IMG/VR virus record: IMGVR_UViG_3300020050_008099
Source of the DNA: an uncultured virus (IMG/VR IMGVR_UViG_3300020050_008099)
Lineage: Duplodnaviria; Heunggongvirae; Uroviricota; Caudoviricetes
Direction: 5' to 3' (one strand)
DNA length: 20,000 bases
Part shown: piece by piece, positions 274 to 20,000 of the stretch
Layout of the letters: every line of letters begins with the position of its first letter
How positions within the stretch are numbered: the stretch's first letter is position 1
Made by a program: the position numbers and the translations under genes
The notes under the pieces: generated by a model
Told to the model about the DNA's origin: nothing
The model's database searches: none
The model's input: the letters and a program-made list of their open reading frames with translations, nothing else

Positions 274-315
274 CTTTTTATCCTTTTGTTGATGGAATTA
301 GGATTTACGACCATC

Positions 316-399
316 AACACGCAAGGGCCATCTTTTCAAGGGTGGAGATTTCTATGCCTAGAATCTCGGCCTTTATTCATATGGGTAGTCTCTTGTGTT
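316..399 (-). promoter_or_regulatory. Structured leader upstream of capsid gene (long interrupted hairpin)
   Basis: Minus-strand nested helices CCAU/AUGG, AAGG/CCUU and GAGAUU/AAUCUC, with asymmetric internal loops CUAC x CC and CC x CAC, in the scaffold-capsid intergenic gap. Confidence 0.5.
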
Positions 400-434
400 T
401 TATTGGTAAGACTTGATCAACGTCTTGTCTTGTC

Positions 435-1217: not shown

Positions 1218-1256
1218 AGTAACCTTTCTGGGGCCAACATTTGTTGGGTAGCCATA

Positions 1257-3691: not shown

Positions 3692-3875
3692 TTAATTCAT
3701 CCCTCAACCGTTCCATACGTTTGTAAGCAGTTAGTTGACCCTGCAGTCTGTAAATAATGTGTGGGTCAACAGCCCCTTCAAGTTGGAGACGAAGTTCAAT
3801 GATACGAGAATTGACCCATTTGTGAAAATCTTCTTTCACCAAAGGTGTGTTAAGTGCTTGTTTAAGAAATTCCAC
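3672..3875 (-). CDS. Small hypothetical protein after portal
   Basis: 67 aa helical ORF (IYRLQGQL) overlapping both neighbours in the operon. Confidence 0.7.
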   Translation of the reverse strand: MEFLKQALNTPLVKEDFHKWVNSRIIELRLQLEGAVDPHIIYRLQGQLTAYKRMERLRDELNGRETS

Positions 3876-5934: not shown

Positions 5935-5949
5935 ATTTCTTCCTGTGTA

Positions 5950-7383: not shown

Positions 7384-7744
7384 CGTCGGTTTGGGTGATT
7401 TTGGCTCCGATGTGGTCTTCTTCGAGCTGACGGATTTTTTCTTCGATCTTTTTGGTCCGTTCGGCCCAGTGTTTAAGAGAAGTTGCTCTTCGTTGCCTAG
7501 TTCGTTCACTTGCTAACCTTTTTCTTAAGCCTTCGTTAGAAATATACCTTCCGGTAATGTCAGTTAGCCAATTAGCTACTTCTCTTAACGAAAAACTTTT
7601 TACATGTTGTCTGGCTTTTTCTAAAGCCTCTAACTCAAAAGGGATTGGCAGGAGAATATCTGGGTCTTCTGGGTCTTCTTTGTAGCCAAAAGGGATTGTC
7701 CTAGAGATACGAGGGATTTTAAACCACTTCGTGTCTTCTGCCAT
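7367..7744 (-). CDS. DNA-binding protein upstream of TerL (PFGY + HTH-like)
   Basis: IPRISRTIPFGY...SLREVANWL...ISNEGLRKRL resembles recombinase-type winged-HTH DNA-binding segments. Confidence 0.7.
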   Translation of the reverse strand: MAEDTKWFKIPRISRTIPFGYKEDPEDPDILLPIPFELEALEKARQHVKSFSLREVANWLTDITGRYISNEGLRKRLASERTRQRRATSLKHWAERTKKIEEKIRQLEEDHIGAKITQTDDGDSA

Positions 7745-8203
7745 CTATTTACTCCAACTTAAGATTTTATCACACCAACCCAAAAGATCATCCTTATCTC
7801 TGTCAAGTTTCATGATATTAACTCTACGACAAACAAGCTGGATATTTCCCTCTTCGTAACCAAGGTCAGAGTTAATACGATCTATAGAGATATTAGTATC
7901 TATTTTACCTTGTCCACAAGTGTACGTCATTTTGACGCCAGAAATAGCACATAGTCCTTCTTGTGTGTTGTAAACAGATTTCAGATAGTCTAAAGTTAAG
8001 TGCCTACGTTCGGACTTTTTAACACACAAAGATTTTAAAAAATTTTCTACAGACCGTCCCCTATGAACAACACTGTACTTATGTTTATACACATATTTTG
8101 TTCTATAAGAAACACCACAAGTTTTACCACAAAAAATTTGAGTTTTTCTGCTTGGATTTTGTATAAACACTTTAGAGCAATATTTACACTCTTTTTCTTG
8201 CAT
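7745..8203 (-). CDS. His-Me finger (HNH-like) homing endonuclease with N-terminal Cys cluster
   Basis: CKYC..FCGKTC Zn motif plus GLCAISG...SIDRINSDLGYEEGNIQLVCRRVNIMK beta-beta-alpha nuclease pattern. Confidence 0.8.
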   Translation of the reverse strand: MQEKECKYCSKVFIQNPSRKTQIFCGKTCGVSYRTKYVYKHKYSVVHRGRSVENFLKSLCVKKSERRHLTLDYLKSVYNTQEGLCAISGVKMTYTCGQGKIDTNISIDRINSDLGYEEGNIQLVCRRVNIMKLDRDKDDLLGWCDKILSWSK

Positions 8204-8204
8204 A

Positions 8205-8455
8205 CTAGGACCGTTTAGGTTGGCGTCTGCGATTTACTGCCCTCGAAACAATTCTGAGATTAGAGGGGGAATTATCACGGGGCCGAAAATTTTTGTGGTC
8301 AATTTCTTTACCGTCGCCTTTATGAACCTTGCCAGATTTCATGGCCTCTCGTCTTGCTTTATTACGAGCAGCACGATCTTTTTTACCTTTTTCGGTTCCG
8401 TGAGTTGCTTGGTATTCTTTTCGAGCTACTGATAGTCGCGCTTACGCTCGGCCAT
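8205..8455 (-). pseudogene. Small HNH endonuclease interrupted by an 8-nt insertion/frameshift
   Basis: GGAGG RBS, then ATG frame MAERKRDYQ*. The body in another frame reads RKEYQATHGTEKGKKDRAARNKARR...GDGKEIDHKNFRPRDNSPSNLRIVSRAVNRRR*. Removing CAGTAGCT restores RDYRKEY and an 80-aa HNH protein. Confidence 0.75.
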
Positions 8456-9086
8456 CTCTTACCTCCAATCTCTCTGGGTTATTGTTAGCAACTGCTCGAC
8501 AAATTTCAATAAACTTATCAAGTGGTATATCGGACCTCCAAGAGTTTACGGCCCGACACACAAGTTGTATATTATCAGTCGTATAAGATTGGCCTGCATT
8601 AACTCTATCTACAGAAGCATTAGACCAATATTTAGTTCCGTTAGTCAATAAACAAGTTAAGGGAAGGCCACTAATAGCACACTTACCACCTTGTTTGTGT
8701 AGTAGGGCTAGTAGGTCATCTCTCTTAAGACCGTCCCTTTTCCTCCCAGACGAGTATAGTAGTCGAGAAAGATACCTAGACCAATTACCAGATATGTTTT
8801 CATACTGACTTTCCGTCGTCACAGAATCTGTAACGTATTTCCAACGGCCTTTGCAAGAGGGATTACAAAATTTTTGTTTTGTAGTTTTTGCGTTAAAAAT
8901 TCTCTGACAAACAGGGCAAGTTTTTTCCTCTTTAGGGAGGGTTAACTGAGCATCTAATCTCGCTTGACAAGCTTCTTTATAGGTTTCAAAAACACCAAGA
9001 TGTGTTTTTACACCCTTGTAAGACACAAAAGCAGCCCATTTTTTGCCTTTTGAGAAGACCCCTGCCACACGTTCTTTACTTGGCAA
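8442..9086 (-). CDS. AP2-domain + Cys-cluster + HNH-like homing endonuclease
   Basis: N-terminal GV...KKWAAFV...HLGVFETYKEACQAR (AP2-like), CPVC/FCNPSC, and GKCAISG...SVDRVNAGQSYTTDNIQLVCRAVN. TTG start with GAGG upstream. Confidence 0.8.
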   Translation of the reverse strand: MPSKERVAGVFSKGKKWAAFVSYKGVKTHLGVFETYKEACQARLDAQLTLPKEEKTCPVCQRIFNAKTTKQKFCNPSCKGRWKYVTDSVTTESQYENISGNWSRYLSRLLYSSGRKRDGLKRDDLLALLHKQGGKCAISGLPLTCLLTNGTKYWSNASVDRVNAGQSYTTDNIQLVCRAVNSWRSDIPLDKFIEICRAVANNNPERLEVRDGRA

Positions 9087-9088
9087 GG

Positions 9089-9448
9089 TTATTCCCCCTC
9101 TTTTGCGGGGAGGATGAAGATTCCATTACTTGTAATGTCAATCTTTTCTGTTTTAACTACCCCAGCTCTGTCTAACACCTCTTTAGAGGCTGCTAGAATC
9201 TCTTTATTTCCAAGAGCCATAGGTGTGTCTAAAATACCCACCATTTTTACAGCAGCTTTAGGACCATTTCTGGCAATGAAGTCTTTTGTCGCTTCAATAA
9301 TCTCGTCTTGTAAGACTTTTACAAGCTGTGTAGTTGGGTAGGTGTCTGAGTAACCAGCAAGTCTTTTTGCTTCTACCACATTTCCGGCAGCTTGGTCAAA
9401 CAGAACCTCTAAAAATAGTTTTTGCTGGTCACTCAGTTTTCTTGTCAT
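9089..9448 (-). CDS. Probable terminase small subunit
   Basis: LSDQQKLFLE...EAKRLAGYS HTH N-terminus and AASKEVLDRAG C-terminal motif typical of TerS; located in the packaging cluster. Confidence 0.7.
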   Translation of the reverse strand: MTRKLSDQQKLFLEVLFDQAAGNVVEAKRLAGYSDTYPTTQLVKVLQDEIIEATKDFIARNGPKAAVKMVGILDTPMALGNKEILAASKEVLDRAGVVKTEKIDITSNGIFILPAKEGE

Positions 9449-9984
9449 TTTTTGTACTTTAACAAACGAGCCTTAGCAGCAGCTCTTTTAGCTGCGTCTT
9501 TTTCGGCCTCAAGCTTAGGATTAGTTCCATTAAGGATAGCTCTTCCAAGAGCGGCACCGGGAACAGGGGTTTTGTTGACAGTGGCTTCATCAACCCTGTT
9601 AAGGGCTTTTGTTGCACGATCTGTAATAGCTTTAACACCTGCGTTCTTAACTGCAAGAGAGCGGCTACGCTGTGATTTGGAAGAGGGCGTAACACCTTGC
9701 TTAGGAATGGGCATTGTTGCAACATCCCCTTTTTTATAACCTTTTGCAGCGTCTTTGGCTACGGGGGTTTTTGCTTTAGGCTTGCTAGCAGATTTTGTTG
9801 CTGGTGCAGCAGTGGGTTCGGGGGCTTTTAAGATATTTTTTACTTTATCCGAACCACTCCAAATTTTTCCATTTGCGTTATAACCGCCCACAGAACCACC
9901 ACTTTTATTTTGTACGGAATCGCCTTTAACGACGTATCCAGCAGCTTCTAAAGCTGCTTTTTGAGATTTTGAGATTTTAGCCAT
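9445..9984 (-). CDS. Lys/Ala-rich basic hypothetical protein
   Basis: ORF track gives 9445-10053. The ATG at 9984 (MAKISKSQK) has a purine-rich upstream sequence and lies in the AT-rich backbone; ATGA overlap with TerS. Confidence 0.7.
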   Translation of the reverse strand: MAKISKSQKAALEAAGYVVKGDSVQNKSGGSVGGYNANGKIWSGSDKVKNILKAPEPTAAPATKSASKPKAKTPVAKDAAKGYKKGDVATMPIPKQGVTPSSKSQRSRSLAVKNAGVKAITDRATKALNRVDEATVNKTPVPGAALGRAILNGTNPKLEAEKDAAKRAAAKARLLKYKK

Positions 9985-10069
9985 TTTTTCTCTTTCAATT
10001 TCAGGCTCAATGCCCATGTTCCGAAGCGCCGACTCGACCTGTTCTCGCTGCACGATGAACCCCTGAATT

Positions 10070-10150
10070 TGGTGGAGCAGGAGGGTCGCGTGGTCCCCCT
10101 CTCACGGCTGCGTCTGCCTACCGCGCCCCCTTCCCGCTTGAGGCTGCCCC
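10070..10150 (-). ncRNA. tRNA-like cloverleaf with alanine acceptor identity (G3:U70, A73, CCA)
   Basis: RNA reads GGGGCAG CCUC-AAGCGGGAA-GGGG G CGCGGU-AGGCAGACGCA-GCCGUG A GAGGG-GGACCACGCGA-CCCUC CUGCUCC ACCA. No canonical T-loop or 7-nt anticodon loop. Confidence 0.6.
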
Positions 10151-10385
10151 GAAGGTTCGGTTCCTCTTATTGAGCCACCGAAAAGCCGTCATCGTCCCTG
10201 CTTTCGCGCTATTGCCTGCCCGTGCCGTTCGGCCCCGGACTCACGCTGGGGATGGACGCTCCCCGCTGCCTCAGTCGCGGTCCTTCCCCTTGACCCGGCA
10301 GTCGAGGAAGGGCGCGGCAGGGGCACCGGGGCTTGTGTAGAACGGCGTCACGCTGCCGGGTGCGATCTGGTCATAGTTGATGTTT
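10151..10385 (-). ncRNA. GC-rich structured RNA downstream of the tail fibre gene
   Basis: Long-range helices GCCGUUC/GAACGGC and GCCCCGG/CCGGGGC, an inner hairpin CUUCC-UCGAC/GUCAA-GGAAG, ACCCGGCA/UGCCGGGU complementarity and a GCGAAAGC tetraloop on the minus strand. Confidence 0.5.
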
Positions 10386-10392
10386 TGGGTCA

Positions 10393-13104
10393 TCAGAACC
10401 ACCTTCCGATTGCCGTGAGTGAAACAGTCCGATCAGCGGCTACCACTTCGCTGGTGATCGTTGTCGCATGCCAAAAACACCGCGTCGCGCTATCTGGATA
10501 GGCGTTAGCCCCAAACGCTGTGGAATTTCTGACCGACACAAGTACCGCAACCTCTGCTGATACAAAATTCGCCGGGTACGTCCAAAGTTGCCCGGGTGTG
10601 CGAAACCCGCCGTGAAGCGCCATTGTGCTGGCGAGGCTTTCGGTTTCCGTCTGCCAACAAATCTGGGTGCCGTCGGCGAAGCGGACGTACTCGCCTGCCC
10701 CCGTCACTCCGCGCTGCACGATGCCGCCCGTCGGCACACCGCCGCTTTGGCTCACCGGAGCGACGATGTTGCCCTGATTGTAGACCATATGCCCGTCGGT
10801 CGCCGCTGCCGGAACGCCGTCCAGCACGCGCAGTTCCGACGCATTGGCCCAGAGCCGCACGTCGCCGTATTGGCGGGGGGCCACGAATGTGCCCAAGGCG
10901 TTGTCACCGGCGGCGTCGATATCCCAGAGCGGCCCGTTGACCGCGCCGGATTGGGCCGATGTGCCCTTGAACACGCCCTTCATCATTCCCCAAAGGATGC
11001 GCGATGTAAGGCCGTTGATCGTGACCGATTGGGTATCCGCAGGAACTTCGCAGTGCTGGACAAACCAGCAGTTTGCGTAATGCTCGCCGACCGTCGTGTC
11101 GGTCAGGGTCAGGCTGTATCGCGGCCCGCCCATGACGATGACCGCCTCGTCCGGGGCGCAGGCGCAGACCTCCTGATGATACTGGTGGATCGTGTTGCTG
11201 CGGCAATCGCTAATGATCGCGGGGCCGCTCTTGGTGAGGTAAACATCGTCGCCATGAATTTTGATCTGGGACAGATAGGCGTTGGTGCCCGCGCCAAGAA
11301 ACAACCCGCCGCCGTAGTGCTGCTCGATCTGGATCGCGCTGAACTCGATATCGTTGACGGGCGGCCCAGGTTGATCGGCGTATTCTGCGGGCTGCGGGCC
11401 GCAGTGCAACGTCATCGAGGTGGTGAACACGCCGCTGGTGCTGCGGGTCGCCGCAACCGCAAGGCGCGCCGTCGATGCGTCGATTACTTCGGCGATGGTC
11501 GTGTGCAGGGTGCGGCCATCGTCCCCGGCGTTGACTAGCCAGACCATTCGGCCAACGTCGCCATCGTCCAGGACTTCCGCGTCCAGCGTGATTTCGTCCG
11601 ACGCGGCGGTGCTGGTGAAGCGGGCCTGCGCGAAGTGGATCGCGGCGCTGGAACTTGACGCAAACGGCGCGGTTTCAAAGGTTCCCGTCGTGGCACTGGT
11701 GACGGTCGCAATCCTGTTCGCCATCCCCCTGCTGTCCGAAGAACTTTCGGGATAGGTCGGCACGGCCTTGGTCAGGATGATGGCCGCGCCCACGTCATCC
11801 GCCGAGACCGTGCCGCTCGAAAGGGTGAAGTTCAGGCTGCTGGCGGTGATCGACGCAACCAGTTCATCGTCCCGGCGCAGGTACTGTGTGCCGCCCGACC
11901 CCAGCCGCATGTTATAACCGTCGCTGTTGAACGAACGCGTCAGGTAAAGCGCCGAGCCGCCGTAGTATGTGATGTTGAAATTTGCCAGCGTCCAGCCCAG
12001 GTTGTTGACCCCGAGGATGCCATTCGATGTGTCTTTTGTCAGCGTGGAGTAGTAGCCCCTGGCTGTCCAGTTGCGCAGGATTACATCTTCGCTATCTTCG
12101 GTGGACCCCATCCAGTTAAATTTCATCCACCACTGATCGCAACCCATCCGTTCCCACCGGATTTCGCAGCCCTTATCGCTGTCGCCGTAGATGGTGATGC
12201 CACTGGCCGCAACAGTTTCGCCTTGAGTGAAATCCAATTCAGCGGAGCAGCGATAAATCTTGTCAACGTATCCAACTTTCGCCACGCGGGCGACGTAATC
12301 CGCCCACTCCAACAGCGCCGGTGTGTCCAGCGCAACGTTGTTGCCGGGCGCGCCGAAATCTCCCGGCGTCACTACCCCGGCTGGCCTCCATTTCCGCCCG
12401 TTATTCGCCGTGATAGGCCCGTCCGCATCTGCCACCCAAACGCGCCCCTCAACTACAGCCGTGTTGACCGGTTCAGGCAGGTTGGCCGCAATAAAGCTTG
12501 CCCGTGTGTCAAAATCCGCCCGGTTGCCTTCATCAAACGGGATAGGCCGGGGCACCAGATAGGAGACACGATCACCGACGCGCAGCGCCTCGTTGAACGT
12601 CACCTCATCGCCCGCGACGGTGTAACCAACACCGTAGGTCTCAAACACCCCGTTGCGCGTCAGGATAAGCTTGTGATTGCCCGGATCAAAGGCCAGCGGG
12701 AACACCGCGCCCGCCGTCTCGACTACGAAGCTGTGAACCTCGTTCAAGGCCATGCTGGCAAGGACGTCGGCGGCAGCGGCAGCTGCCAGCGCATCGTCAG
12801 CGGCGTCTCCGGCATAGCCCTGCGCTTCATCGCGGGCGGTTTCAGCCAGCAAGCGATCAGCCTCTGCGGCGGCGGCATCCAGCCCGGTTTGCACACGGTC
12901 CGCTGCGGTTGCCGTGCGGTCAAGGCCGGTCTGAACCCGGTCAGCGGCGGTGGCGGAAACATCAAGGCCGGTCTGCACCCGATCTGCGCCAGTGGCCGTC
13001 GCATCCGCGCCCGCCTTGGCCGCGTTAGCCTCTACATCCGAAAGGATGTTATTAATTTTTGACCTGACAGAAGCTCCGGTCTCACCATTCTCAATTTGTG
13101 TCAT
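10393..13104 (-). CDS. Tail fibre/tailspike receptor-binding protein
   Basis: 903 aa. N-terminal 14-aa coiled-coil repeats, VTPGDFGAPGN..DTPAL entry to a pectate-lyase-like beta-helix, and C-terminal GEYVRFADGTQICW...LTAIGRWF fibre-tip domain. Confidence 0.85.
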   Translation of the reverse strand: MTQIENGETGASVRSKINNILSDVEANAAKAGADATATGADRVQTGLDVSATAADRVQTGLDRTATAADRVQTGLDAAAAEADRLLAETARDEAQGYAGDAADDALAAAAAADVLASMALNEVHSFVVETAGAVFPLAFDPGNHKLILTRNGVFETYGVGYTVAGDEVTFNEALRVGDRVSYLVPRPIPFDEGNRADFDTRASFIAANLPEPVNTAVVEGRVWVADADGPITANNGRKWRPAGVVTPGDFGAPGNNVALDTPALLEWADYVARVAKVGYVDKIYRCSAELDFTQGETVAASGITIYGDSDKGCEIRWERMGCDQWWMKFNWMGSTEDSEDVILRNWTARGYYSTLTKDTSNGILGVNNLGWTLANFNITYYGGSALYLTRSFNSDGYNMRLGSGGTQYLRRDDELVASITASSLNFTLSSGTVSADDVGAAIILTKAVPTYPESSSDSRGMANRIATVTSATTGTFETAPFASSSSAAIHFAQARFTSTAASDEITLDAEVLDDGDVGRMVWLVNAGDDGRTLHTTIAEVIDASTARLAVAATRSTSGVFTTSMTLHCGPQPAEYADQPGPPVNDIEFSAIQIEQHYGGGLFLGAGTNAYLSQIKIHGDDVYLTKSGPAIISDCRSNTIHQYHQEVCACAPDEAVIVMGGPRYSLTLTDTTVGEHYANCWFVQHCEVPADTQSVTINGLTSRILWGMMKGVFKGTSAQSGAVNGPLWDIDAAGDNALGTFVAPRQYGDVRLWANASELRVLDGVPAAATDGHMVYNQGNIVAPVSQSGGVPTGGIVQRGVTGAGEYVRFADGTQICWQTETESLASTMALHGGFRTPGQLWTYPANFVSAEVAVLVSVRNSTAFGANAYPDSATRCFWHATTITSEVVAADRTVSLTAIGRWF
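12855..12995 (-). repeat. Three and a part 42-nt (14-aa) tandem repeats AT(A/G)ADRVQTGLD
   Basis: Protein reads ATGADRVQTGLDVS-ATAADRVQTGLDRT-ATAADRVQTGLDAA-AAEADR. Confidence 0.85.
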
Positions 13105-13107
13105 TAA

Positions 13108-13293
13108 TTAGTCTTCCCAAACATATTCATCATTCCAGCCCGTGTCATCACTCCAAATATGGTCTACCACCTTTGGAACATAAGCAGTTGTTCTGCTCAC
13201 CCTTTGATAAGAGGTCTTTAATGACAATCTCTCTGAATTGGAGAGGGTAACGGTTTTAGGAAATTCACCTAATTGATCAACGAAACAGCCCAT
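13108..13293 (-). CDS. Small hypothetical protein
   Basis: ATG at 13293 with GAGGG upstream; ends WSDDTGWNDEYVWED just before the fibre gene. Confidence 0.55.
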   Translation of the reverse strand: MGCFVDQLGEFPKTVTLSNSERLSLKTSYQRVSRTTAYVPKVVDHIWSDDTGWNDEYVWED

Positions 13294-13317
13294 AACCAAC
13301 CCTCATCAAATTCATCC

Positions 13318-13464
13318 TTACCTGTAAACTTTTGCAGGGGTGCGAAGCTTTTCCACTTTTCTAATTAATAGTTCCCACTGGTCTTTTGTGGGGGCGTCTT
13401 GCTTAAACACGGTGAGAGCTTCTACAAACCCATCAAACCAATTTACAAATTCTGTTTGTGTCAT
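13318..13464 (-). CDS. Small hypothetical phage protein (48 aa)
   Basis: Manual translation MTQTEFVNWFDGFVEALTVFKQDAPTKDQWELLIRKVEKLRTPAKVYR; the F..W..GF.E....PT..QW pattern recurs in small phage proteins. Confidence 0.65.
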   Translation of the reverse strand: MTQTEFVNWFDGFVEALTVFKQDAPTKDQWELLIRKVEKLRTPAKVYR

Positions 13465-13563
13465 CTAAATTCTTTCTGAGGGAATAAGCAAGTTTGCTAC
13501 GGGCATCCGCCCAATCTAGTATATTTTATCGAAGTAAGCAGACTTTTCGCCACTCAAGAAATC

Positions 13564-13638
13564 TGGTGCTCTCACCCAGAGTTGAACTGAGTTCTACGGG
13601 TTACAAATCCGTTGCATCACCTTCAATGCTTTAAGAGC
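13564..13638 (-). tRNA. tRNA-Thr(UGU)
   Basis: GCTCTTA AA GCAT-TGAAGGTG-ATGC A ACGGA-TTTGTAA-CCCGT AGAA CTCAG-TTCAACT-CTGGG TGAGAGC ACCA. Confidence 0.9.
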
Positions 13639-14111
13639 AAGTTCTTTATATTCCATATGGTTTCGTTACACTACACTCATATGTATTACTATTAATATTT
13701 CTTAATATATTACTGGGGGCGTAACTAAGGTTTTTCTCTCAACCCCCTACCCCCAATACTATATGGCACTTTTTAGGGGTTTTGTTCCTTGAAAATAAAA
13801 AAATATTTTTTAACCCTCGTTTAAAATACTTTTTTGATCGAATATCGTCGAAGCAAAGCGTTGCTTCTCCTCTTACGTAAACAAGAGGACGAAAAAGGAA
13901 AGAGGGCTATATTTCTCAACCATAGCGAAGGAGCTTGGAGCCTTGTGTCGAAGTGGTTGTCAATGAAAAACCCATTTCTGTGGGAAAGTGTATATATAAC
14001 AACGCCTTAACCCCCCTTGGCCCATACCCCCCATACCCCCTATGCCTGTTTGCATACATAATCCCGAGTGATTTAGTCGGGTATTTGACTACACCTCTCC
14101 CCTCTCCACTG

Positions 14112-14201
14112 TAATTCAACGTTAAACAATCCAGAGAAAACTAGTTTAGTGCTAAACAATCTGCCCTATCCGCCGATAGACTAGTTTAACATTAAACTAT
14201 C
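14112..14201. repeat. Three 20-bp quasi-palindromic repeats (GTTTA-N4-TAAAC core)
   Basis: taattcaacgttaaacaatc (14112), tagtttagtgctaaacaatc (14142), tagtttaacattaaactatc (14182). Confidence 0.7.
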
Positions 14202-14769
14202 TATTGCCTGATTAGGTCAATGCTATTGCCCGACCTTCATACGCCCCATTAAAACCGCTTTGAAAATGCGTCTAAGCCTTTCGGCCATCACACCCTAAAA
14301 CAAATCGACTTGACACATAGGCGAACAATTCCGGTTTTCCCTATGTGATTCGCTATGTCCAGACACAAACCCTAGTATACCTTGTTATAGCATCACATCA
14401 CAGATTCCCCTATTTGTTACATCCTTTGTAACATTCCGTTACAATGCCTCTTTACTAGGCGATATTTATTTGAAGCCCCATTGCAGATTCCCTTCGACAG
14501 AGAATCCGCCCATATCTGATTCGTCCCTTCCTTTTCGTTCCTATCACATTCCCCTTGACGAATCGCTTGCTTTATGTCACGCGCAGGCCCGTTTTTTCCG
14601 CATGATCAAAAGATAACATTCTAAACTAATCAGTTCAAAAATAGGGCTATGCGAATCGTTTCCGTTCTGTCAAACAGGCTTCACCGGACGGCAGGCTAGC
14701 CGGAAGGGACTAGGGCCATGGGCTCTATGGAAAGGGGAAAGGGCGCTGGCCATAATAGCGCGAAAGGGC

Positions 14770-14803
14770 TTGACATAAGAGGCGAATCGCCTTAGGTGTT
14801 AAG
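14770..14803 (+). promoter_or_regulatory. Putative sigma70-type early promoter with GANTC in the spacer
   Basis: TTGACA at 14770, CGAATCG inside the spacer, TAGGTG/GTTAAG -10 candidates; upstream of the first rightward ORF. Confidence 0.5.
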
Positions 14804-14970
14804 TCAGCGAGAGGAAAGCTGGATTAGCTAAGACGGGCTTAGGCTTGTGGGCTAGGAAGGCTGGAAAGCTTGCAAATATATGGCAAAGCGCAAGCTTTGT
14901 TTGTTCTTTAAGAAACAATAGAACATATGTTCTATTCATGGCTATGGGATAGCTAGAAAAGGGGAATGCC

Positions 14971-15375
14971 ATGGCGACTCTGTCGTCTAAGGACAAGCTC
15001 ACTTTGAAACTGTCTGCCCAACGGGTGGAACGGTGGAATTGTGAGCGAATGAAACCTGCGAAGGATGTTTCCCGTTGCAAAGGCATTGTCTTTGCGCCGG
15101 GGCAGGAAAAGGAATCTCTGGAATATGGTGACAAAGATGTCATTGTTTCCAGTGGTGACAAGATGCGGAATGCTGATGCCAAGACGGCAAGGCAATTCGT
15201 GCGGCGTCATATGGGGTTTTCTGACTATACCCCCGATGCCAGCGAGATTCAGCCCATTGGCGCAGGCAAGCGCAAGAATAAGCTTGTCTATGTCGTGGGC
15301 GCTGACCGGGCTTCTGACAAGCCCAACAAGGCTTCGGCCTTCAAGAAAATTCCTTGGAAAACTCGGGGGGCATAA
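14971..15375 (+). CDS. Early hypothetical protein (134 aa)
   Basis: AAAGGGG RBS, ATG start, followed by a terminator-like hairpin. Confidence 0.75.
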   Translation: MATLSSKDKLTLKLSAQRVERWNCERMKPAKDVSRCKGIVFAPGQEKESLEYGDKDVIVSSGDKMRNADAKTARQFVRRHMGFSDYTPDASEIQPIGAGKRKNKLVYVVGADRASDKPNKASAFKKIPWKTRGA

Positions 15376-15397
15376 GCCCCCCTTCCCTTCCCTTTTC
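15365..15397 (+). terminator. Possible intrinsic terminator
   Basis: GGGGGC-ATAA-GCCCCC hairpin followed by TTCCCTTCCCTTTT. Confidence 0.5.
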
Positions 15398-15399
15398 TA

Positions 15400-16075
15400 G
15401 CTAGGCTTTGTAAGGACATTTGATTGTGTCTTTACATGGCCTTCCTACGGCCTTTTGAGAAATGTCTGGCAGGGATTATTCCCTTCCTAGAGAGACCTGT
15501 TGACGCCCAAGGCTAACGCTAAGGGGTCATAGAAGGGGCTTGACGGGAATCTGTGGAATGCTGCCAGCAACGCTAGGATAGCGTTAAATATCCCTTGGCG
15601 TCACGCGATAGCGCAAGTGACAGCGAAGCCCCAGTAGGGCTAGCTGTTCATGGCTAATCCGATGTATCGGGCAGCTTGCGTAAAAGGCGGACAAAAATAG
15701 ACGCCAATGTGGTGCAGAGGAAATGCTGCACCAATACCACATAAACAATCCCTTAACGATAAGATTAACGGTTTAGGACAAGAATTCCTATTATCATGGA
15801 ATGTTGCGCCTTCTCGTCAGTGCTGATTCGGGCAGGATTGGAACAACTGAAAGGGAGGGGAAACCCTCTTTAACGGAAGTTTGTGTGGAAAGCAACGCAA
15901 TTGGCTAGCCCCTCCTTAAGAGGGCCAACCCTTTACACTGGTGAGTGTAGGGGAGGGGCTGGCCTTGCATTGATGAACCTTCTAATCTTCTTCGCTTCAA
16001 CCTTCTTGAAAGAAACCGATAATTTATGGTGTGTAGGTCTTGAAGCTTGTTGAGGGTGGAGGGTTCTTCCATGCA
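15400..16075 (+). ncRNA. Large structured non-coding region (~670 nt)
   Basis: No credible ORF. Helices include TGTAAGGACAT/GTGTCTTTACA, CTGGCAG/CTGCCAG, TGACGCC-CAAGG/CCTTGGCGTCA, GGTGCAG/CTGCACC, GGCTAGCCCCTCC/GGAGGGGCTGGCC and GAACCTTCTA/TGGAGGGTTC. Confidence 0.55.
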
Positions 16076-16086
16076 AGGGGGTTAAA

Positions 16087-16272
16087 ATGAGACATGTGAC
16101 AATTACTGACCATTTTGGAGAGGGTCTTTGTGTTTATGAGGCCACCTACGAATCGCCTGAAACATACAAGGGCGATGATCTGAGAAAGATTGCTGGCCCT
16201 TTTGAAAGCTGGTCTGAGGCGGAGGAAGAGGCAGAGACCTACGCGAATGGGGATGAAATCTGCATCCTCTGA
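16087..16272 (+). CDS. Small acidic hypothetical protein (61 aa)
   Basis: AAGGGG RBS; GPFESWSEAEEEA motif. Confidence 0.7.
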   Translation: MRHVTITDHFGEGLCVYEATYESPETYKGDDLRKIAGPFESWSEAEEEAETYANGDEICIL

Positions 16273-16355
16273 CATTCCAGCGGACAAGGCACCAAAACAT
16301 GGTGCCTTGCTAGATGCAATGTCGCATCCTGCCAAAGCATTGAAGAGGTGTTATC

Positions 16356-16988
16356 ATGGCAAAAGAAAAAGGGCCTGCCAAGGCCAGCTTCGTTGATCAG
16401 GTCAACGACTATTGGGGCCGTCGGTCGGCCAATGGCACCGAAGGGCTGGCCCTTGTGGGCAAGCTGATGCTTCGGTTTGCCGACTATGGGGATTGGGATG
16501 CTCTGGCCCGGTTCGTCGTCAAGGCGGGCCAGCACGGCCAGCGTGAAAAGGTGGTGAAGATCATCCGGGCCGGGTTCGGCAATCATGTCACCTTCAAGAC
16601 CAATGCCAAGCACCCGGCGGGCGGGGAGTTTATCAAGGTGAACTGGACCGGGGAAAAGTTCCCCATCCGTCAGAGCAACACCTTCGGCATCGTCAAGGCG
16701 GCCATCGACAAGGGCCTGTCGTGGGACGACAGGGATTTTCAGAGGGAACTGCCCTCGGCTGACAAGAAGGCCCGGCAGGTTTCGGATGAGGCCACCAAGA
16801 AGGTGGTCAAGCATCTGGAAACCTATTGTGGCAAGCTGGCCGCTGATGGTTTCAATGTGGGTGAGGTTCTGGCCGCTTTGCAGAAGGAACTGGCGGCCAA
16901 GGTGAAGGCGGCCACCCCTGTCCAGAAAGCAGCACCTGTCCAGAAGTCGATGGTCAACGGTGTCACCGTCTATGAACCCAGCTTCTAA
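16356..16988 (+). CDS. Early hypothetical protein (210 aa)
   Basis: GAGGTG RBS; strongly GC3-biased codons suggest high expression. Confidence 0.85.
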   Translation: MAKEKGPAKASFVDQVNDYWGRRSANGTEGLALVGKLMLRFADYGDWDALARFVVKAGQHGQREKVVKIIRAGFGNHVTFKTNAKHPAGGEFIKVNWTGEKFPIRQSNTFGIVKAAIDKGLSWDDRDFQRELPSADKKARQVSDEATKKVVKHLETYCGKLAADGFNVGEVLAALQKELAAKVKAATPVQKAAPVQKSMVNGVTVYEPSF

Positions 16989-17024
16989 TGCTGGGGGATA
17001 GTGACAAGGTGCAATACCTAAAGG

Positions 17025-17054
17025 AACAGGGGGGCATTCGCTCCCCTGTCTCTT
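17025..17054 (+). terminator. Possible terminator hairpin
   Basis: ACAGGGG-GGCATTCGCT-CCCCTGT followed by CTCTT, after the 210-aa gene. Confidence 0.4.
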
Positions 17055-17152
17055 GGGTTACGTGGGCTTTGGAGAGGCATTCCAAGGGCTACCAAGTGTT
17101 GCTGATGGAAGAGAAAATCCTCATCTATCGGCTTCTTTCGTAGGAGAATACT

Positions 17153-17278
17153 ATGAGTGCAGAATTTAACCCGACTTTGGTGTGGTTCATCGGGGCTTGT
17201 TCCTGTTGGTATCACGGGGTGGGATTTTGGATGGGACTCTTCTGGCCTTGGTATCTTGGAGGGGTCTTCCTGCCCTAG
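17153..17278 (+). CDS. 41-aa Trp/Gly-rich membrane peptide
   Basis: AGGAG RBS; MSAEFNPTLVWFIGACSCWYHGVGFWMGLFWPWYLGGVFLP. Confidence 0.6.
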   Translation: MSAEFNPTLVWFIGACSCWYHGVGFWMGLFWPWYLGGVFLP

Positions 17279-17303
17279 GTTAAACACCCTCCCCATTTAG
17301 TTT

Positions 17304-17393
17304 GCCTGTGTAGTCATTAAGGGGCCGCCCTTCTTGCAGGGTTGGGCAGCGTAGCCTGCAACTACGTCGCACGTTCAAATCGTGGCACAGGCA
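17304..17393 (+). ncRNA. Aberrant tRNA-like RNA / pseudo-tRNA
   Basis: Acceptor GCCTGTG/CACAGGC-A, TA at positions 8-9, D-like GTC..GGC, T-arm CACG-TTCAAAT-CGTG, two central hairpins with TGC-containing loops; no encoded CCA. Confidence 0.65.
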
Positions 17394-17398
17394 ATTTT

Positions 17399-17697
17399 AA
17401 TGGGGAGACCTATCATCAATCTTCCGTGCTGTAGTGTTCAGTTACTTCTTTGAGCGAAATAACACTGGACACGAATTGTTGCCGGAACATTCTAGAATGT
17501 CTTTCCCCTAGGGGTGGGCATATTCAGAGTTTATTGGGGTGTCTCTGTGTAGAAATAAAACCCCTCCAAACTAGTTGGATAACTTATAAATAGGTGCCTT
17601 GGTGAACCACTGGCGTTCCATGTGGGTGTAAGGATCACCCGAACAAAACTCCTCAGGGCTTGGATGAGTCCAACTACCCTTGGCTAACTCCCCCATA
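17399..17697 (+). ncRNA. Multibranched structured domain (~300 nt)
   Basis: Closing helix ATGGGGAG/CTCCCCCAT, ACCTAT/ATAGGT, and hairpins TAGTGTT/AACACTG, TCCAA/TTGGA, GGGTG/CACCC, TTGGA/TCCAA. Confidence 0.45.
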
Positions 17698-17964
17698 TAC
17701 TTGACTAACCTTTTAAATCCTTGTGAGGAATCCTCTGTGAGAAACATCAGAGACGGCCCGTAGCTGATTTTTTAATTTTCTTAATGGCGAGGAACGGTAA
17801 TGGGAATACTGCGATCTACTGAAGGTTGGAGCTAACCGTCATAAAAAAGCTCCTCAGTCTTAGTGCAGTCCTGTAAATAAGCACACAGATCGGCTGAGTT
17901 TTTAATTTTAGAGTCTCATAATGTAAAACTGTGTCCTGAGCATGACAAGAAAAGGCTCTCCTAT

Positions 17965-18042
17965 GGCGGTGTGAAGGGAATTGGTATACCTTTCTCTCTT
18001 AAAAAGAGAAGTCTGTCGGTTCGAGTCCGACCACCGCTACCA
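17965..18042 (+). tRNA. tRNA-Leu(UAA), short variable arm
   Basis: GGCGGTG TG AAGG-GAATTGGTATA-CCTT TCTCT-CTTAAAA-AGAGA AGTCT GTCGG-TTCGAGT-CCGAC CACCGCT ACCA. Confidence 0.92.
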
Positions 18043-18049
18043 ATTGCAT

Positions 18050-18412
18050 TTTGGCGGAAAGACAGACCTAAGCGTGCTGACCCCACGTTAAGCCATAGAT
18101 GGCGGTAGTCTTTCCCCCTGAGTGTGGTTAAGGCGAAAGAACGCAAGACCCTACTTGTCAAGGGAGATAACGGCCAAGGTAAAGCTCGCCCGTTTAGGGG
18201 ATGTACGGCGCAACCGTTGAAAGAGTGACCCGAGGTGGGGCAATGGCCCCTTAAAATTATGACAAGACTGCACTCAACCTGTCCCCTATAAAATGGGGTC
18301 TGCCGCGCTAATCTCGTCGCGGGGTATAAGTCCGTATAGAGCCTTTAATTAGGTCAGGTATACGGGGTCATGAGTCCTCTGTCCAAACGGGGACGGCTAA
18401 CGGGATGCCAAA
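18050..18412 (+). ncRNA. Large pseudoknotted RNA (~365 nt), unidentified
   Basis: Closed by TTTGGC/GCCAAA. Domains GGAAAGAC/GTCTTTCC and TGAGTGTGGTT/GACTGCACTCA, plus three hairpin loops complementary to distal segments. Confidence 0.65.
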
Positions 18413-18430
18413 TCAACAATGGAGGATGAA

Positions 18431-18559
18431 ATGAACAAAGGTTGGGCTTGGGCCATGGCTGTTAACATTGTTCATGGGTTTCATATGAGGGGCTTTGACC
18501 CTGAAGAGGAACAGTTCGAGGTTGAATGTTTCCTCGTAAGTGGGACTGTTAACACCTAA
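18431..18559 (+). CDS. 42-aa hypothetical peptide
   Basis: GGAGG RBS; MNKGWAWAMAVNIVHGFHMRGFDPEEEQFEVECFLVSGTVNT; the stop abuts the hammerhead. Confidence 0.55.
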   Translation: MNKGWAWAMAVNIVHGFHMRGFDPEEEQFEVECFLVSGTVNT

Positions 18560-18614
18560 GCACCACTGATGAGTCTTGAAGAGACGAAACCAAGAGTCTT
18601 TCTTGGTATGGTGC
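18560..18614 (+). ncRNA. Type I hammerhead ribozyme
   Basis: GCACCA CTGATGA GTCT-TGAAG-AGAC GAAA CCAAGA-GTCTT-TCTTGG TA TGGTGC. Full CUGANGA/GAAA core, three perfect stems, GUA triplet; predicted cleavage after A18608. Confidence 0.93.
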
Positions 18615-18860
18615 CGAGTCTTGAACGTGTAACATAAGATATGGGCGCATTAGGGGCGGGTGGCCACCTTAACCTAATGATTTATGACCCAAAAGGGGTG
18701 TTACATGCTATGGTTCCTTAAGCCTCCGAGGAATTTCCTCTGGGGAAGCTGGTGATTTTGCAATAAGCCAGTGAGTCAAGAACTCCCAACCCAAACACCT
18801 CGCAGATTGTAGGTATGTTTGCGATAGAGAAAAGTCCCTCAAGTTGGTGGGGGCATCTGT

Positions 18861-18936
18861 TCTGATGTAGCTCAATTGGCAGAGCAAAAGATTGTTAATC
18901 TTTAGGTTATAGGTTCGAGTCCTATCATCAGAGCCA
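18861..18936 (+). tRNA. tRNA-Asn(GUU)
   Basis: TCTGATG TA GCTC-AATTGGCA-GAGC A AAAGA-TTGTTAA-TCTTT AGGTT ATAGG-TTCGAGT-CCTAT CATCAGA GCCA. Confidence 0.95.
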
Positions 18937-19005
18937 CTACATTTTATTGGGCAGACTACGGCCCGTTGCGTAGTCAATCAAACTGAATGTAGCAAAGGAA
19001 ACCCC

Positions 19006-19128
19006 ATGAAATTTCGTATGAACGCCTCTGGTCATAAGGTTACCACCAACGCTGGCACTGAAGAGGTCAAAGAGCAAGACTGGTGGGCAATGCTCAAACG
19101 TCAAGTGGTGGCTTCTCAAAAAGCTTGA
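19006..19128 (+). CDS. 40-aa hypothetical peptide
   Basis: AAAGGA RBS; MKFRMNASGHKVTTNAGTEEVKEQDWWAMLKRQVVASQKA. Confidence 0.55.
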   Translation: MKFRMNASGHKVTTNAGTEEVKEQDWWAMLKRQVVASQKA

Positions 19129-19152
19129 AAAACGCATGATTGAGGTGAAGCC

Positions 19153-19398
19153 ATGACCGACCTGACCAAAATCGACCAGCCTTTCGGATCGCTGGACATT
19201 GAGACGAAGCTGGCGCTGCACCGTGCCCAATACGAGGGGAAGGTGATTGAGTGCATAAGCAGCAGTCACAACAAGTGGGGCATAACCATAACCCCTGCGT
19301 GGTGGCCGCAGTTCACCTACCGCCTCCAACCCGAACCCCTGCGCGACATCAACATGCCTTGGAACGAGAGCCTGATCCGCCGCCCGGAGGGTGTGTGA
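19153..19398 (+). CDS. Hypothetical protein (81 aa)
   Basis: GAGGTG RBS; P.W....TYRLQP motif; TGATG coupling to the next gene. Confidence 0.75.
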   Translation: MTDLTKIDQPFGSLDIETKLALHRAQYEGKVIECISSSHNKWGITITPAWWPQFTYRLQPEPLRDINMPWNESLIRRPEGV

Positions 19399-19628
19399 TG
19401 GGCGAACTGGCCAAGTTTTTGCAGTGGGTCATTTCTGACGAAGCGCCGGAGTGGGTTAGCCTCATTGCTGGTGGGATCGCCTCGGCGCTAGTTGTGTCCG
19501 CTTTTATGGGTGCGTTTTTACTTTTTGTTATCCTTGCGGCCACCGGACATTACGCCCTTATGGCTCTCATGTTTCCGGGCGCACCAGTGGCGATTTGCTA
19601 CGTGGCCTATCGGAGGGCGACGAAATGA
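19398..19628 (+). CDS. Small membrane protein (76 aa, two hydrophobic segments)
   Basis: GGAGG RBS, ATG overlapping the upstream TGA; MGELAKFLQW...ICYVAYRRATK. Confidence 0.7.
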   Translation: MGELAKFLQWVISDEAPEWVSLIAGGIASALVVSAFMGAFLLFVILAATGHYALMALMFPGAPVAICYVAYRRATK

Positions 19629-20000
19629 CCCATCGCTTTACGAACTGTACCTTTGATCTTCGCGGCGCAGACTATGCCTGCGTTTCACGCGGCGACGAAT
19701 TTGAGATCGGTTACATCGGGGAAGGCGACCGCGTGTTGATCGACGGCGACACGCTGGACTTTACCGGCCTGCATATCCTTGGGCCTGTCGCGCTGGCCGA
19801 CCGTATCAAGGCGGCGATTGCTCTGGAATGCTACGCGATGACGACTGAGCGCCAAGCCGCGATGGAGAAGGCGTTCTGCATGGGGCGGGATGCGGCGGCT
19901 GCATGGCATACAATGCAAGCGGAGACCGCCATGGGGGCGCTTTGCTGCGGAAGCGATAACTACGAAATTCGTCGCGCAGGGCGGGTTAGTGACATGCACC
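19625..20000 (+). CDS. Hypothetical protein (partial, runs off window)
   Basis: GGAGG RBS, ATGA overlap; MTHRFTNCTFDLRGADYACVSRGDEFEIGY... stays open to the window end. Confidence 0.7.
   Translation, partial: MTHRFTNCTFDLRGADYACVSRGDEFEIGYIGEGDRVLIDGDTLDFTGLHILGPVALADRIKAAIALECYAMTTERQAAMEKAFCMGRDAAAAWHTMQAETAMGALCCGSDNYEIRRAGRVSDMH

What the first reader, a model, noticed from the sequence alone, without database searches (positions are those of the whole stretch)
18551..18633. Canonical hammerhead ribozyme at the stop codon of a 42-aa ORF, upstream of tRNA-Asn
Seen: intact core and GUA cleavage site at 18608. Stem I starts at the base after the TAA and may extend through ACAC/GTGT around an internal loop. 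GAGTCTT occurs three times (18571, 18594, 18616), hinting at alternative folds. Known: hammerheads self-cleave, leaving a 2',3'-cyclic phosphate and a 5'-OH. Inference: it separates the upstream RNA/mRNA from the downstream structured RNA-tRNA-Asn unit, analogous to tRNA-associated ribozymes in other phages.
Basis: partly seen in the sequence, partly recalled or inferred. Interest (0 to 1): 0.75.

Follow-up and report, generated by a model that had tools for sequence, protein, structure and literature searches.

The report
Phage hammerhead ribozyme after small gene
A complete self-cutting hammerhead RNA motif sits directly after the stop codon of a small phage gene, a placement that proves common among phage hammerheads, so it is a clean but ordinary example of a known RNA class.

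Summary
Window 18560-18614 (+) is a complete type I hammerhead. It has a 6-bp stem I, the CUGAUGA core, a 5-bp stem II, GAAA and a 7-bp stem III, with a GUA cleavage site between 18608 and 18609. The motif starts on the base after the TAA of a 42-aa ORF.

Rfam models score it below threshold (18-22 bits). A covariance model I built from 37 unrelated viral type I hammerheads scores it 49.1 bits (rough E 1.8e-13), and the next best hit in the window is 10.6 bits. Chance is effectively excluded.

The stop-codon placement is not special. In 18 of 54 viral type I hammerheads an ORF ends 0-6 nt before stem I, against 4.8% of random positions.

The tRNA link is weak. tRNA-Asn lies 252 nt downstream, and only 4 of 80 viral hammerhead loci have a tRNA within 800 nt.

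The most likely role is self-cleavage of an early polycistronic transcript, which gives the upstream small-gene mRNA a defined, structured 3' end. Cleavage itself and covariation in relatives could not be tested.

This is a new member of a known kind, of modest interest.

The parts
18431..18559 (+). Small ORF (42 aa, or 46 aa from the ATG at 18419) that ends in TAA at 18557-18559
   Evidence: A ~90% identical contig (X7 record 24) carries 25 substitutions in the ORF. Of 18 changed codons, 10 are synonymous, 8 are non-synonymous (several between similar residues) and none is a stop. The other two frames give 3 of 19 and 1 of 19 synonymous. No Pfam or PHROG family matches.
18560..18614 (+). Type I hammerhead ribozyme motif, whole
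   Evidence: Model R1 scores it 49.1 bits (rough E 1.8e-13) over model positions 1-53 of 53.
18560..18565 (+). Stem I, 5' strand; pairs with 18609-18614
18566..18572 (+). Core C3-A9 (CUGAUGA)
   Evidence: core criteria taken from PMC3088659
18573..18585 (+). Stem II hairpin (GUCUU / GAGAC, 3-nt loop as folded)
18586..18589 (+). G12 A13 A14 and A15.1
18589..18607 (+). Stem III hairpin, 7 bp including A15.1-U16.1, with a 5-nt loop
18608..18609 (+). Predicted cleavage site: after A18608 (H17 of the GUA triplet) and before U18609
   Evidence: Follows from the hammerhead numbering applied. Cleavage was not tested.
18609..18614 (+). Stem I, 3' strand
18616..18625 (+). Second copy of the 10-nt repeat GAGTCTTGAA (first copy at 18571-18580), in the 3' flank of stem I
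   Evidence: Its function is unknown. It has a modest effect on the predicted hammerhead-fold probability.
18509..18634 (+). Stretch kept in a strain variant that has different sequence upstream
   Evidence: The X3 contig joins 18278 to 18509 with 99 other letters in between. X1 record 2 aligns only over 18509-18634. In X7, 22 listed differences fall in 18450-18508 against 3 in 18509-18556.
18609..18860 (+). Predicted 3' cleavage product up to the tRNA: 252 nt with no family match and no convincing ORF
   Evidence: One search gave no Rfam match at E<=10. One search gave a fold z-score of -0.97. One search found no Shine-Dalgarno-led ORF start within 60 nt.
18861..18936 (+). tRNA-Asn (GTT)
   Evidence: (74.1 bits)
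17965..18042 (+). tRNA-Leu (TAA), upstream on the same strand

Best explanation
Window 18560-18614 encodes a genuine type I hammerhead ribozyme on the + strand. This is the strand of the flanking tRNA-Leu, the small ORF, tRNA-Asn and the downstream small ORFs.

Mechanism. Once stem I is transcribed, the RNA folds into the three-way junction. It cuts itself between A18608 and U18609 by internal transesterification.
- The 5' product carries the 42-aa ORF plus a 49-nt tail made of stems II and III. It ends in a 2',3'-cyclic phosphate.
- The 3' product starts with a 5'-OH. It carries 252 nt of untranslated RNA, then tRNA-Asn, and probably the genes beyond it.

The most likely role is intercistronic processing of a phage early polycistronic transcript. 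Cleavage gives the upstream message a defined, structured 3' end and uncouples its fate from the downstream RNA.

Shown: the motif, its fold, its family resemblance, its strand, and the general placement of such ribozymes at gene ends.
Inferred: that cleavage occurs, the chemistry of the ends (established hammerhead chemistry), co-transcription of the flanking genes, and the biological role.
For: - The core is complete and all three helices form. Every position that PMC3088659 treats as disqualifying if mutated is present.
- The hammerhead junction is the minimum-free-energy fold of both the 96-nt and the 216-nt contexts. Its ensemble probability is 0.19-0.40 in local transcripts starting at 18505 or 18555 and ending by 18720.
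- Chance expectation is 0.003 per window under loose settings and 0 of 3000 under strict settings. Only 3 of 109 core-pattern matches in two large collections form all three stems.
- Model R1, built from 37 viral type I hammerheads without the window, scores the site 49.1 bits. The next best hit in 20 kb is 10.6 bits.
- The architecture is typical of that set. Stem I is exactly 6 bp in 32 of 56, an A precedes stem I in 45 of 54, and GUA is the triplet in 4 of 56.
- Placement fits a gene-end device. An ORF stop lies 0-6 nt before stem I in 18 of 54 against 114 of 2379 random positions. A Shine-Dalgarno-led start follows within 40 nt in 20 of 54 against 234 of 2392.
- An estuary contig (X5 record 18) is identical over 18558-18708. 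The same run's contig over 18355-18505 has 5 differences.
- The three listed variant substitutions nearby are compatible with the predicted pairing: 18541 is unpaired, and 18545 and 18556 change to G-U and U-G.
- No sigma-70-like promoter was found on the + strand in 16900-19300, and terminator-like sites are at chance level. This is consistent with read-through transcription.
Against: - No Rfam hammerhead model reaches its gathering score. Hammerhead_1 gives 18.4 bits against 34, and RAGATH-1 gives 22 against 56.3. Hammerhead_1 mis-registers the long stem III, and RAGATH-1 expects a 1-bp stem II.
- No covariation could be shown. No relative was found in the phage records, viral contigs, metagenome contigs or species genomes. 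The read-laying table did not show the differences inside the motif.
- Relatives by large terminase (80 loci, 63-76% identity) show no hammerhead.
- In long equilibrium folds, such as 18431-18720, competing long-range pairings reduce the hammerhead probability to about 0.
- There is no RNA evidence. All runs laid were assembled contigs, which cannot show RNA ends.
- Unlike 20 of 54 viral examples, no ORF start follows the motif here.
- R1 was built from sequences chosen with a stem II pattern that the window also carries, so its score is partly by construction.
Confidence: 0.75

Rival explanations
1. The hammerhead and RNase P together excise a discrete 252-nt non-coding RNA (18609-18860). The ribozyme makes its 5'-OH end, and RNase P cleavage at the 5' end of tRNA-Asn makes its 3' end. 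On this reading the ribozyme mainly serves a ribozyme-RNA-tRNA cassette and not the upstream mRNA.
For: - The layout is hammerhead, then 252 nt without a Shine-Dalgarno-led ORF, then tRNA-Asn on one strand.
- Four viral loci have co-oriented tRNAs 133-371 nt after a type I hammerhead.
- Contigs from three runs are identical to the window over parts of this spacer (X3 18628-18849, X1 18663-18940, X5 18558-18708).
- Earlier scan notes describe similar layouts in other phages. These are leads only.
Against: - The spacer folds no better than shuffles (z -0.97) and matches no Rfam family at E<=10.
- It shows no similarity to the spacers of the four tRNA-linked viral loci. BLAST hits cover only the ribozyme core.
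- The ~90% identical contig X7 stops being colinear at 18676.
- The identical contigs may come from the window's own strain.
- tRNAs occur within 800 nt in only 4 of 80 viral hammerhead loci.
Confidence: 0.12
2. The ribozyme acts in tRNA-Asn maturation. It trims the long 5' leader so that the phage tRNA precursor is freed from the mRNA.
For: The site lies in a tRNA-bearing early region between tRNA-Leu and tRNA-Asn on the same strand. A precedent exists of phage ribozymes tied to tRNA processing, the theta ribozymes (PMC10879173, passages).
Against: - Cleavage leaves a 252-nt leader, so RNase P is still needed and sufficient for the mature 5' end (established tRNA biology).
- Theta ribozymes are postulated to cut the tRNA 3' trailer. 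This motif starts 518 nt after tRNA-Leu.
- Most viral type I hammerheads have no tRNA nearby (76 of 80 loci; 14 of 14 other hammerhead-pattern loci).
Confidence: 0.08
3. The motif is a chance or decayed look-alike with no activity.
For: Scores are below threshold with every Rfam hammerhead model. There is no demonstrated covariation and no RNA data.
Against: - All core positions are intact and the helices are 6, 5 and 7 bp.
- No strict hit occurred in 3000 shuffles.
- The independent model gives 49.1 bits.
- Only 3 of 109 core-pattern matches in the two large-collection scans form all three stems.
Confidence: 0.04

Closest known systems
Type I hammerhead ribozymes encoded in bacterial and phage DNA (Perreault et al. 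2011, PMC3088659; noted again in PMC13725137)
   Same: The core consensus is identical and stem I is open. Helix III is long, unlike the short helix III of eukaryotic retroelement type I hammerheads (PMC13725137 passage). The motif lies between genes of a polycistronic phage region. It scores 49.1 bits against a model of 37 viral examples.
   Different: The sequence is not close to any example fetched, since similarity is confined to the core. The triplet is GUA, where 50 of 56 have GUC. The 3' flank is CG, not the common AA. It is followed by 252 nt and a tRNA, not by a gene start.
Rfam Hammerhead_1 (RF00163)
   Same: The topology and core are the same. The model aligns the core and stem II correctly.
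   Different: The score is 18.4 bits against a gathering score of 34. As printed, the model shows 2 helix III pairs around a short hidden segment. It forces a wrong register here, taking UGGUAU as the 3' strand of stem I.
RAGATH-1 hammerhead (RF03152)
   Same: This is the best-scoring Rfam hit (22 bits). Its long helix III and stem I align in the right register, and a small hairpin lies upstream (18539-18555).
   Different: The score is far below the gathering score of 56.3. RAGATH-1 has a 1-bp stem II in the model, whereas this RNA has a regular 5-bp stem II.
Theta (minimal HDV-like) ribozymes next to phage tRNAs (PMC10879173)
   Same: Both are self-cleaving RNAs in phage regions that carry tRNAs.
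   Different: The fold class is different. The authors postulate that theta ribozymes process tRNA 3' trailers. This motif starts 518 nt after one tRNA and cuts 252 nt before the next.
Hammerheads flanking genes in polycistronic RNAs, such as the triple arrangement around ardA in Agrobacterium tumefaciens (PMC3088659, passage)
   Same: The ribozyme is placed between cistrons so that one long transcript is cut into pieces.
   Different: Only one hammerhead was found in this window. I did not read the ribozyme types of that arrangement.

Membership tests
Hammerhead ribozyme, type I | Core nucleotides C3 U4 G5 A6 N7 G8 A9 G12 A13 A14 A15.1 U16.1 H17 (criteria in PMC3088659) | tested here: met
   All are present at 18566-18572, 18586-18589, 18607 and 18608. 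Criteria were read.
Hammerhead ribozyme, type I | Three helices around the core, with stems II and III closed by loops and stem I open | tested here: met
   Helices of 6, 5 and 7 bp. This is the minimum-free-energy structure in two contexts and the only descriptor hit in the window.
Hammerhead ribozyme, type I | Score at or above the curated Rfam gathering threshold | tested here: not met
   Hammerhead_1 gives 18.4 bits against 34. There was no hit in gathering mode. The printed alignment is in the wrong register for stem III and stem I.
Hammerhead ribozyme, type I | Match to a structure-and-sequence profile of independent viral type I hammerheads | tested here: met
   R1 was built from 37 of 56 distinct viral examples. 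The 19 dropped had stem I under 6 bp or misaligned 3' ends. The window scores 49.1 bits (rough E 1.8e-13) over the full length.
Hammerhead ribozyme, type I | Conservation of the core with compensatory changes in the stems among relatives | tested here: inconclusive
   Variant contigs exist and are colinear without indels, but the differences inside 18560-18614 were not displayed. No relatives were found in the other collections.
Hammerhead ribozyme, type I | Tertiary contact between stem I (or its flanks) and loop II that gives fast cleavage at low Mg2+ | not testable with these tools
   There is only an indirect hint. The 5' AA flank is shared with 26 of 54 viral examples.
Hammerhead ribozyme, type I | Site-specific self-cleavage that gives 2',3'-cyclic phosphate and 5'-OH ends | not testable with these tools
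   All sequencing runs laid were assembled contigs, which cannot show RNA ends.
RAGATH-1 hammerhead variant | Rfam RF03152 profile with stem II reduced to one pair plus a 5' hairpin | tested here: not met
   22 bits against a gathering score of 56.3. Stem II here is 5 bp.
tRNA-associated theta ribozymes | HDV-like fold placed beside a tRNA, with postulated 3'-trailer processing | tested here: not met
   No HDV-like Rfam match at E<=10 in 18040-18990. The motif starts 518 nt from tRNA-Leu and cuts 252 nt before tRNA-Asn. The family description comes from PMC10879173 passages.

The most novel reading that the evidence does not exclude
Stop-codon-abutting type I hammerheads may be a general phage device in which translation gates RNA cleavage. 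A ribosome terminating at the TAA would cover the 5' strand of stem I and part of the core. The ribozyme could then fold and cut only when the upstream ORF is not being translated, or only after ribosome release. That would couple the decay or 3'-end formation of each cistron to its own translation.

The window's motif would be one instance. Its stop codon touches stem I. The last 17 codons lie in a stretch kept in a variant whose upstream sequence differs. An upstream helix within the ORF (18539-18543) can sequester stem I in a competing fold.
Probability: 0.12. Interest if true: 0.6.

Novelty: new member of a known kind. Interest (0 to 1): 0.3.

Why it matters
It adds a well-formed example of a type I hammerhead in an uncultured wastewater-type phage that the curated Rfam models miss. 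This shows that long-helix-III phage hammerheads are under-detected by RF00163.

The side result may be of more use. Viral type I hammerheads often begin within a few bases of an upstream stop codon and lie shortly before the next gene start. That makes the idea of hammerheads as intercistronic cutting marks directly testable.

For this locus alone, the finding is ordinary.

Tried and rejected
Relatives of the locus:
- BLASTN of 17900-19000 and of 13100-17900 against phage records found only tRNA matches.
- Exact and gapped patterns from the motif found 0 loci in viral contigs.
- The neighbouring 210-aa protein gave one weak viral locus.
- A 20-nt anchor from the conserved stretch upstream found 0 loci in metagenome contigs.
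- A fixed-spacing core pattern found 6 viral, 79 metagenome and 30 species-genome loci, none related to the window.

The window's own assembly is not held. The nearest record, G001, is identical to window 1-10332 only and ends there, so it lacks the locus. A loose hammerhead pattern on G001 matched as often as its reversed control (32 against 31), so it gives no sign of further hammerheads.

Large-terminase relatives:
- 80 loci had no hammerhead by my descriptor.
- Pattern hits in 5 whole records did not score as ribozymes. Two loci were checked with Rfam.
- Those relatives carry almost no tRNAs: 1 tRNA in 13 loci scanned (11 terminase loci plus the two pattern-hit loci).

Sequencing runs:
- 16 runs hold parts of the stretch, mostly wastewater, with a best share of 0.53.
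- Four were laid. All are contigs, so no RNA ends, strand or cleavage can be read from them.
- The table of differences showed nothing beyond 18556 (33 rows were not shown), so covariation inside the motif could not be read.

Other points:
- A first covariance-model attempt from six hammerheads was dropped because MAFFT misaligned them.
- I rejected the long-range duplex between the ORF body (18450-18504) and 18650-18716 seen in one fold as a feature. In the X7 relative the 5' arm is heavily substituted and colinearity ends at 18676.
- I considered a hidden tRNA in 18636-18680, suggested by the X7 joint to a T-arm-like piece. I rejected it because ARAGORN and Rfam find none and the stretch folds as a plain hairpin.
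- No other ribozyme class was found in 13100-20000 at E<=1, or in 18040-18990 at E<=10.
- Literature searches returned no paper on hammerheads abutting stop codons in phages or on hammerhead-tRNA units. This rests on those five searches only.

Full report
**What is there**

The window is from a tailed phage. It has an SU10-type portal at 3862-5934 (-), a T4-type large terminase at 5950-7509 (-) and a tail-fibre-like 903-aa ORF at 10393-13104 (-). From about 15 kb onward the genes and tRNAs run on the + strand:
- small ORFs;
- tRNA-Leu(TAA) at 17965-18042;
- a 42-aa ORF at 18431-18559;
- tRNA-Asn(GTT) at 18861-18936;
- more small ORFs.

The sequence at 18560-18614 reads as a complete type I hammerhead:

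| Element | Coordinates |
|---|---|
| Stem I | GCACCA 18560-18565 / UGGUGC 18609-18614 |
| Core CUGAUGA | 18566-18572 |
| Stem II | GUCUU 18573-18577 / GAGAC 18581-18585 |
| GAAA | 18586-18589 |
| Stem III | ACCAAGA 18589-18595 / UCUUGGU 18601-18607 |
| H17 | A18608 |

The TAA of the ORF (18557-18559) touches stem I. GAGTCTT occurs three times, and two of the copies form a 10-nt exact repeat.

**Is it more than chance?**

- The three-way junction is the minimum-free-energy fold of 18545-18640 (-24.3 kcal/mol, z -2.0). It persists in the fold of 18505-18720 (-69.7 kcal/mol, z -2.6, 3 of 200 shuffles as good).
- My own descriptor for type I hammerheads finds exactly this site and nothing else on either strand. 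First-order shuffles of the window give 0.003 loose hits per 20 kb, and none in 3000 at the observed stem lengths.
- As an empirical null, I searched a pattern of the 17 fixed core bases at this motif's spacing. It matched 79 metagenome loci and 30 loci in species genomes. Only 2 of 79 and 1 of 30 also formed all three helices in register, and those are evident hammerheads.

A chance origin is not credible.

**Why Rfam misses it, and an independent family test**

In gathering mode Rfam reports only the three tRNAs. In E-value mode the best matches are RAGATH-1 hammerhead (22 bits, gathering score 56.3) and Hammerhead_1 (18.4 bits, gathering score 34).

The printed Hammerhead_1 alignment is out of register. 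It shows 2 helix III pairs around a short hidden segment, and it takes UGGUAU as the 3' strand of stem I. The RAGATH-1 model aligns stems I and III correctly but expects a 1-bp stem II. A passage in PMC13725137 says that most type I hammerheads come from eukaryotic retroelements with a short helix III. It adds that a longer helix III resembles those of bacteria and phages.

I therefore collected viral hammerheads with a core-plus-stem-II pattern.
- My descriptor called 63 of the 82 matches type I, 13 type III and 6 neither.
- This gave 56 distinct type I sequences.
- I aligned 37 of them. The 19 dropped had stem I under 6 bp or misaligned ends.
- A covariance model built from these, without the window, scores 18560-18614 at 49.1 bits with a rough E of 1.8e-13, end to end. 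The next best hit in the window is 10.6 bits.

One caveat applies. The training set was chosen with a stem II pattern that the window shares.

**Relatives and variation**

No relative of the locus turned up in phage records, viral contigs, metagenome contigs or species genomes. The window's assembly is not held. The nearest record equals window 1-10332 and stops there. Phages related by terminase (63-76% identity, 80 loci) show no hammerhead and almost no tRNAs.

Public runs, mostly wastewater, do hold variants. Four were laid:
- An estuary contig is identical over 18558-18708, while its neighbour over 18355-18505 has 5 differences.
- One variant (X3, and probably X1 record 2) replaces 18279-18508 with 99 other letters but keeps 18509 onward, with 5 differences. 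Three of them are listed (18541, 18545, 18556).
- A ~90% identical contig (X7) is colinear over 18040-18676, with 61 differences and no indels.

The table of differences showed nothing beyond 18556, so I cannot say which bases change inside the ribozyme. Covariation remains untested. The three listed changes are compatible with the predicted pairing: one is unpaired, and two become G-U or U-G.

**The ORF is probably real**

In X7 the ORF carries 25 substitutions. Of 18 changed codons, 10 are synonymous and 8 are non-synonymous, several of them between similar residues. No stop codon is introduced. The other two frames give 3 of 19 and 1 of 19 synonymous. No family matches it.

**What the placement means**

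Among 54 viral type I hammerheads with enough flank:
- An A precedes stem I in 45, and AA in 26.
- An ORF of at least 30 codons ends 0-6 nt before stem I in 18, against 114 of 2379 random positions in the same loci (binomial p 3e-11). In 7 of these the stop codon touches stem I, as it does here.
- A Shine-Dalgarno-led start of an ORF of at least 30 codons follows within 40 nt in 20 of 54, against 234 of 2392 (p 8e-8).

Near-duplicates are not phylogenetically independent, and the control is random positions, not intergenic ones.

With those limits, the picture is that phage type I hammerheads fill short gaps between cistrons. The window fits on the upstream side. On the downstream side it differs, because 252 nt without a Shine-Dalgarno-led ORF and then tRNA-Asn follow.

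**The tRNA link**

Only 4 of 80 viral hammerhead loci have a tRNA within 800 nt. All four are co-oriented, and two lie inside tRNA arrays. None of 14 other hammerhead-pattern loci has one.

The theta ribozyme authors postulate that those ribozymes process tRNA 3' trailers (PMC10879173, passages). This motif is 518 nt from tRNA-Leu and 252 nt from tRNA-Asn. RNase P would still have to make the mature 5' end, which is established biology.

Earlier notes from this scan describe hammerhead-RNA-tRNA layouts in other phages. I treated them as leads. My counts show that such layouts exist but are a minority.

**Mechanism and odds**

The most likely reading, at about 0.75, is a working ribozyme that cuts the early polycistronic transcript at 18608/18609. 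The small-gene mRNA would keep a 49-nt structured tail with a cyclic phosphate. The downstream RNA would start with a 5'-OH.

Local transcripts are predicted to populate the active fold at 0.19-0.40. Long equilibrium folds favour competitors. Such competitors matter less if folding is co-transcriptional, which is an inference.

Rival readings:
- a ribozyme-RNA-tRNA cassette that releases a 252-nt RNA (0.12);
- a role in tRNA-Asn maturation (0.08);
- an inactive look-alike (0.04).

**Novelty**

Type I hammerheads in phage and bacterial DNA are known (PMC3088659, abstract and passages; PMC13725137, passages). So are hammerheads between genes of polycistronic RNAs (PMC3088659 passage). This is a new member of a known kind.

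The stop-codon adjacency statistic did not turn up in five literature searches. That does not show it is unpublished. I did not read the supplements of PMC3088659, which hold its alignments and gene contexts, and they may bear on this point.

Noticed in passing
window 10332-13104: The nearest held virus record is 100% identical to window 1-10332 and ends exactly there. At that point G+C jumps from about 42% to about 63% across the tail-fibre-like 903-aa ORF (10393-13104, -). This could be a swapped host-range module, a strain-variable breakpoint or an assembly joint.
   Followed up: partly
window 13100-16350: About 3 kb has very low coding density, with no ORF over 134 aa and none matching a family. 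It lies between the leftward structural genes and the rightward small-gene region. No Rfam match at E<=1 apart from tRNA-Thr.
   Followed up: partly
window 14950-14963 and 15390-15403: A perfect 14-nt inverted repeat brackets the 134-aa ORF at 14971-15375.
   Followed up: no
window 18279-18508: In one strain variant this 230-nt stretch is replaced by 99 other letters, while 18509 onward is kept. It includes the 5' two-thirds of the small ORF and a 93-nt stretch (18279-18371) with no listed differences in the ~90% identical contig.
   Followed up: partly
window 18676 / 18906: The ~90% identical contig (X7 record 24) leaves colinearity at 18676 and continues with 35 nt that resemble the T-arm part of tRNA-Asn. 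This suggests a different or closer tRNA in that relative. It is a low-confidence joint.
   Followed up: no
window 17948-17960 and 18828-18840: A 13-nt motif (85% identical copies) lies 5 nt before tRNA-Leu and 21 nt before tRNA-Asn. It may be a shared processing or promoter-proximal signal, or chance.
   Followed up: no
L003, L005/L008, L228, L253 (viral contigs): Several viral contigs carry two type I hammerheads on one strand, 236-490 nt apart. These are paired ribozymes that would release a short RNA segment.
   Followed up: no
L217, L219, L269, L288 (viral contigs): One type I hammerhead subfamily has the same stem I and a CG 3' flank, with similar sequence just downstream in L269 and L288. 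In those two loci it sits inside tRNA arrays. In L288 its core pattern begins 12 nt after tRNA-Asp, so stem I begins about 6 nt after it.
   Followed up: partly
54 viral type I hammerheads (loci L210-L288): An ORF stop lies 0-6 nt before stem I in 18 of 54, against 4.8% of random positions. A Shine-Dalgarno-led start lies within 40 nt after stem I in 20 of 54, against 9.8%.
   Followed up: yes
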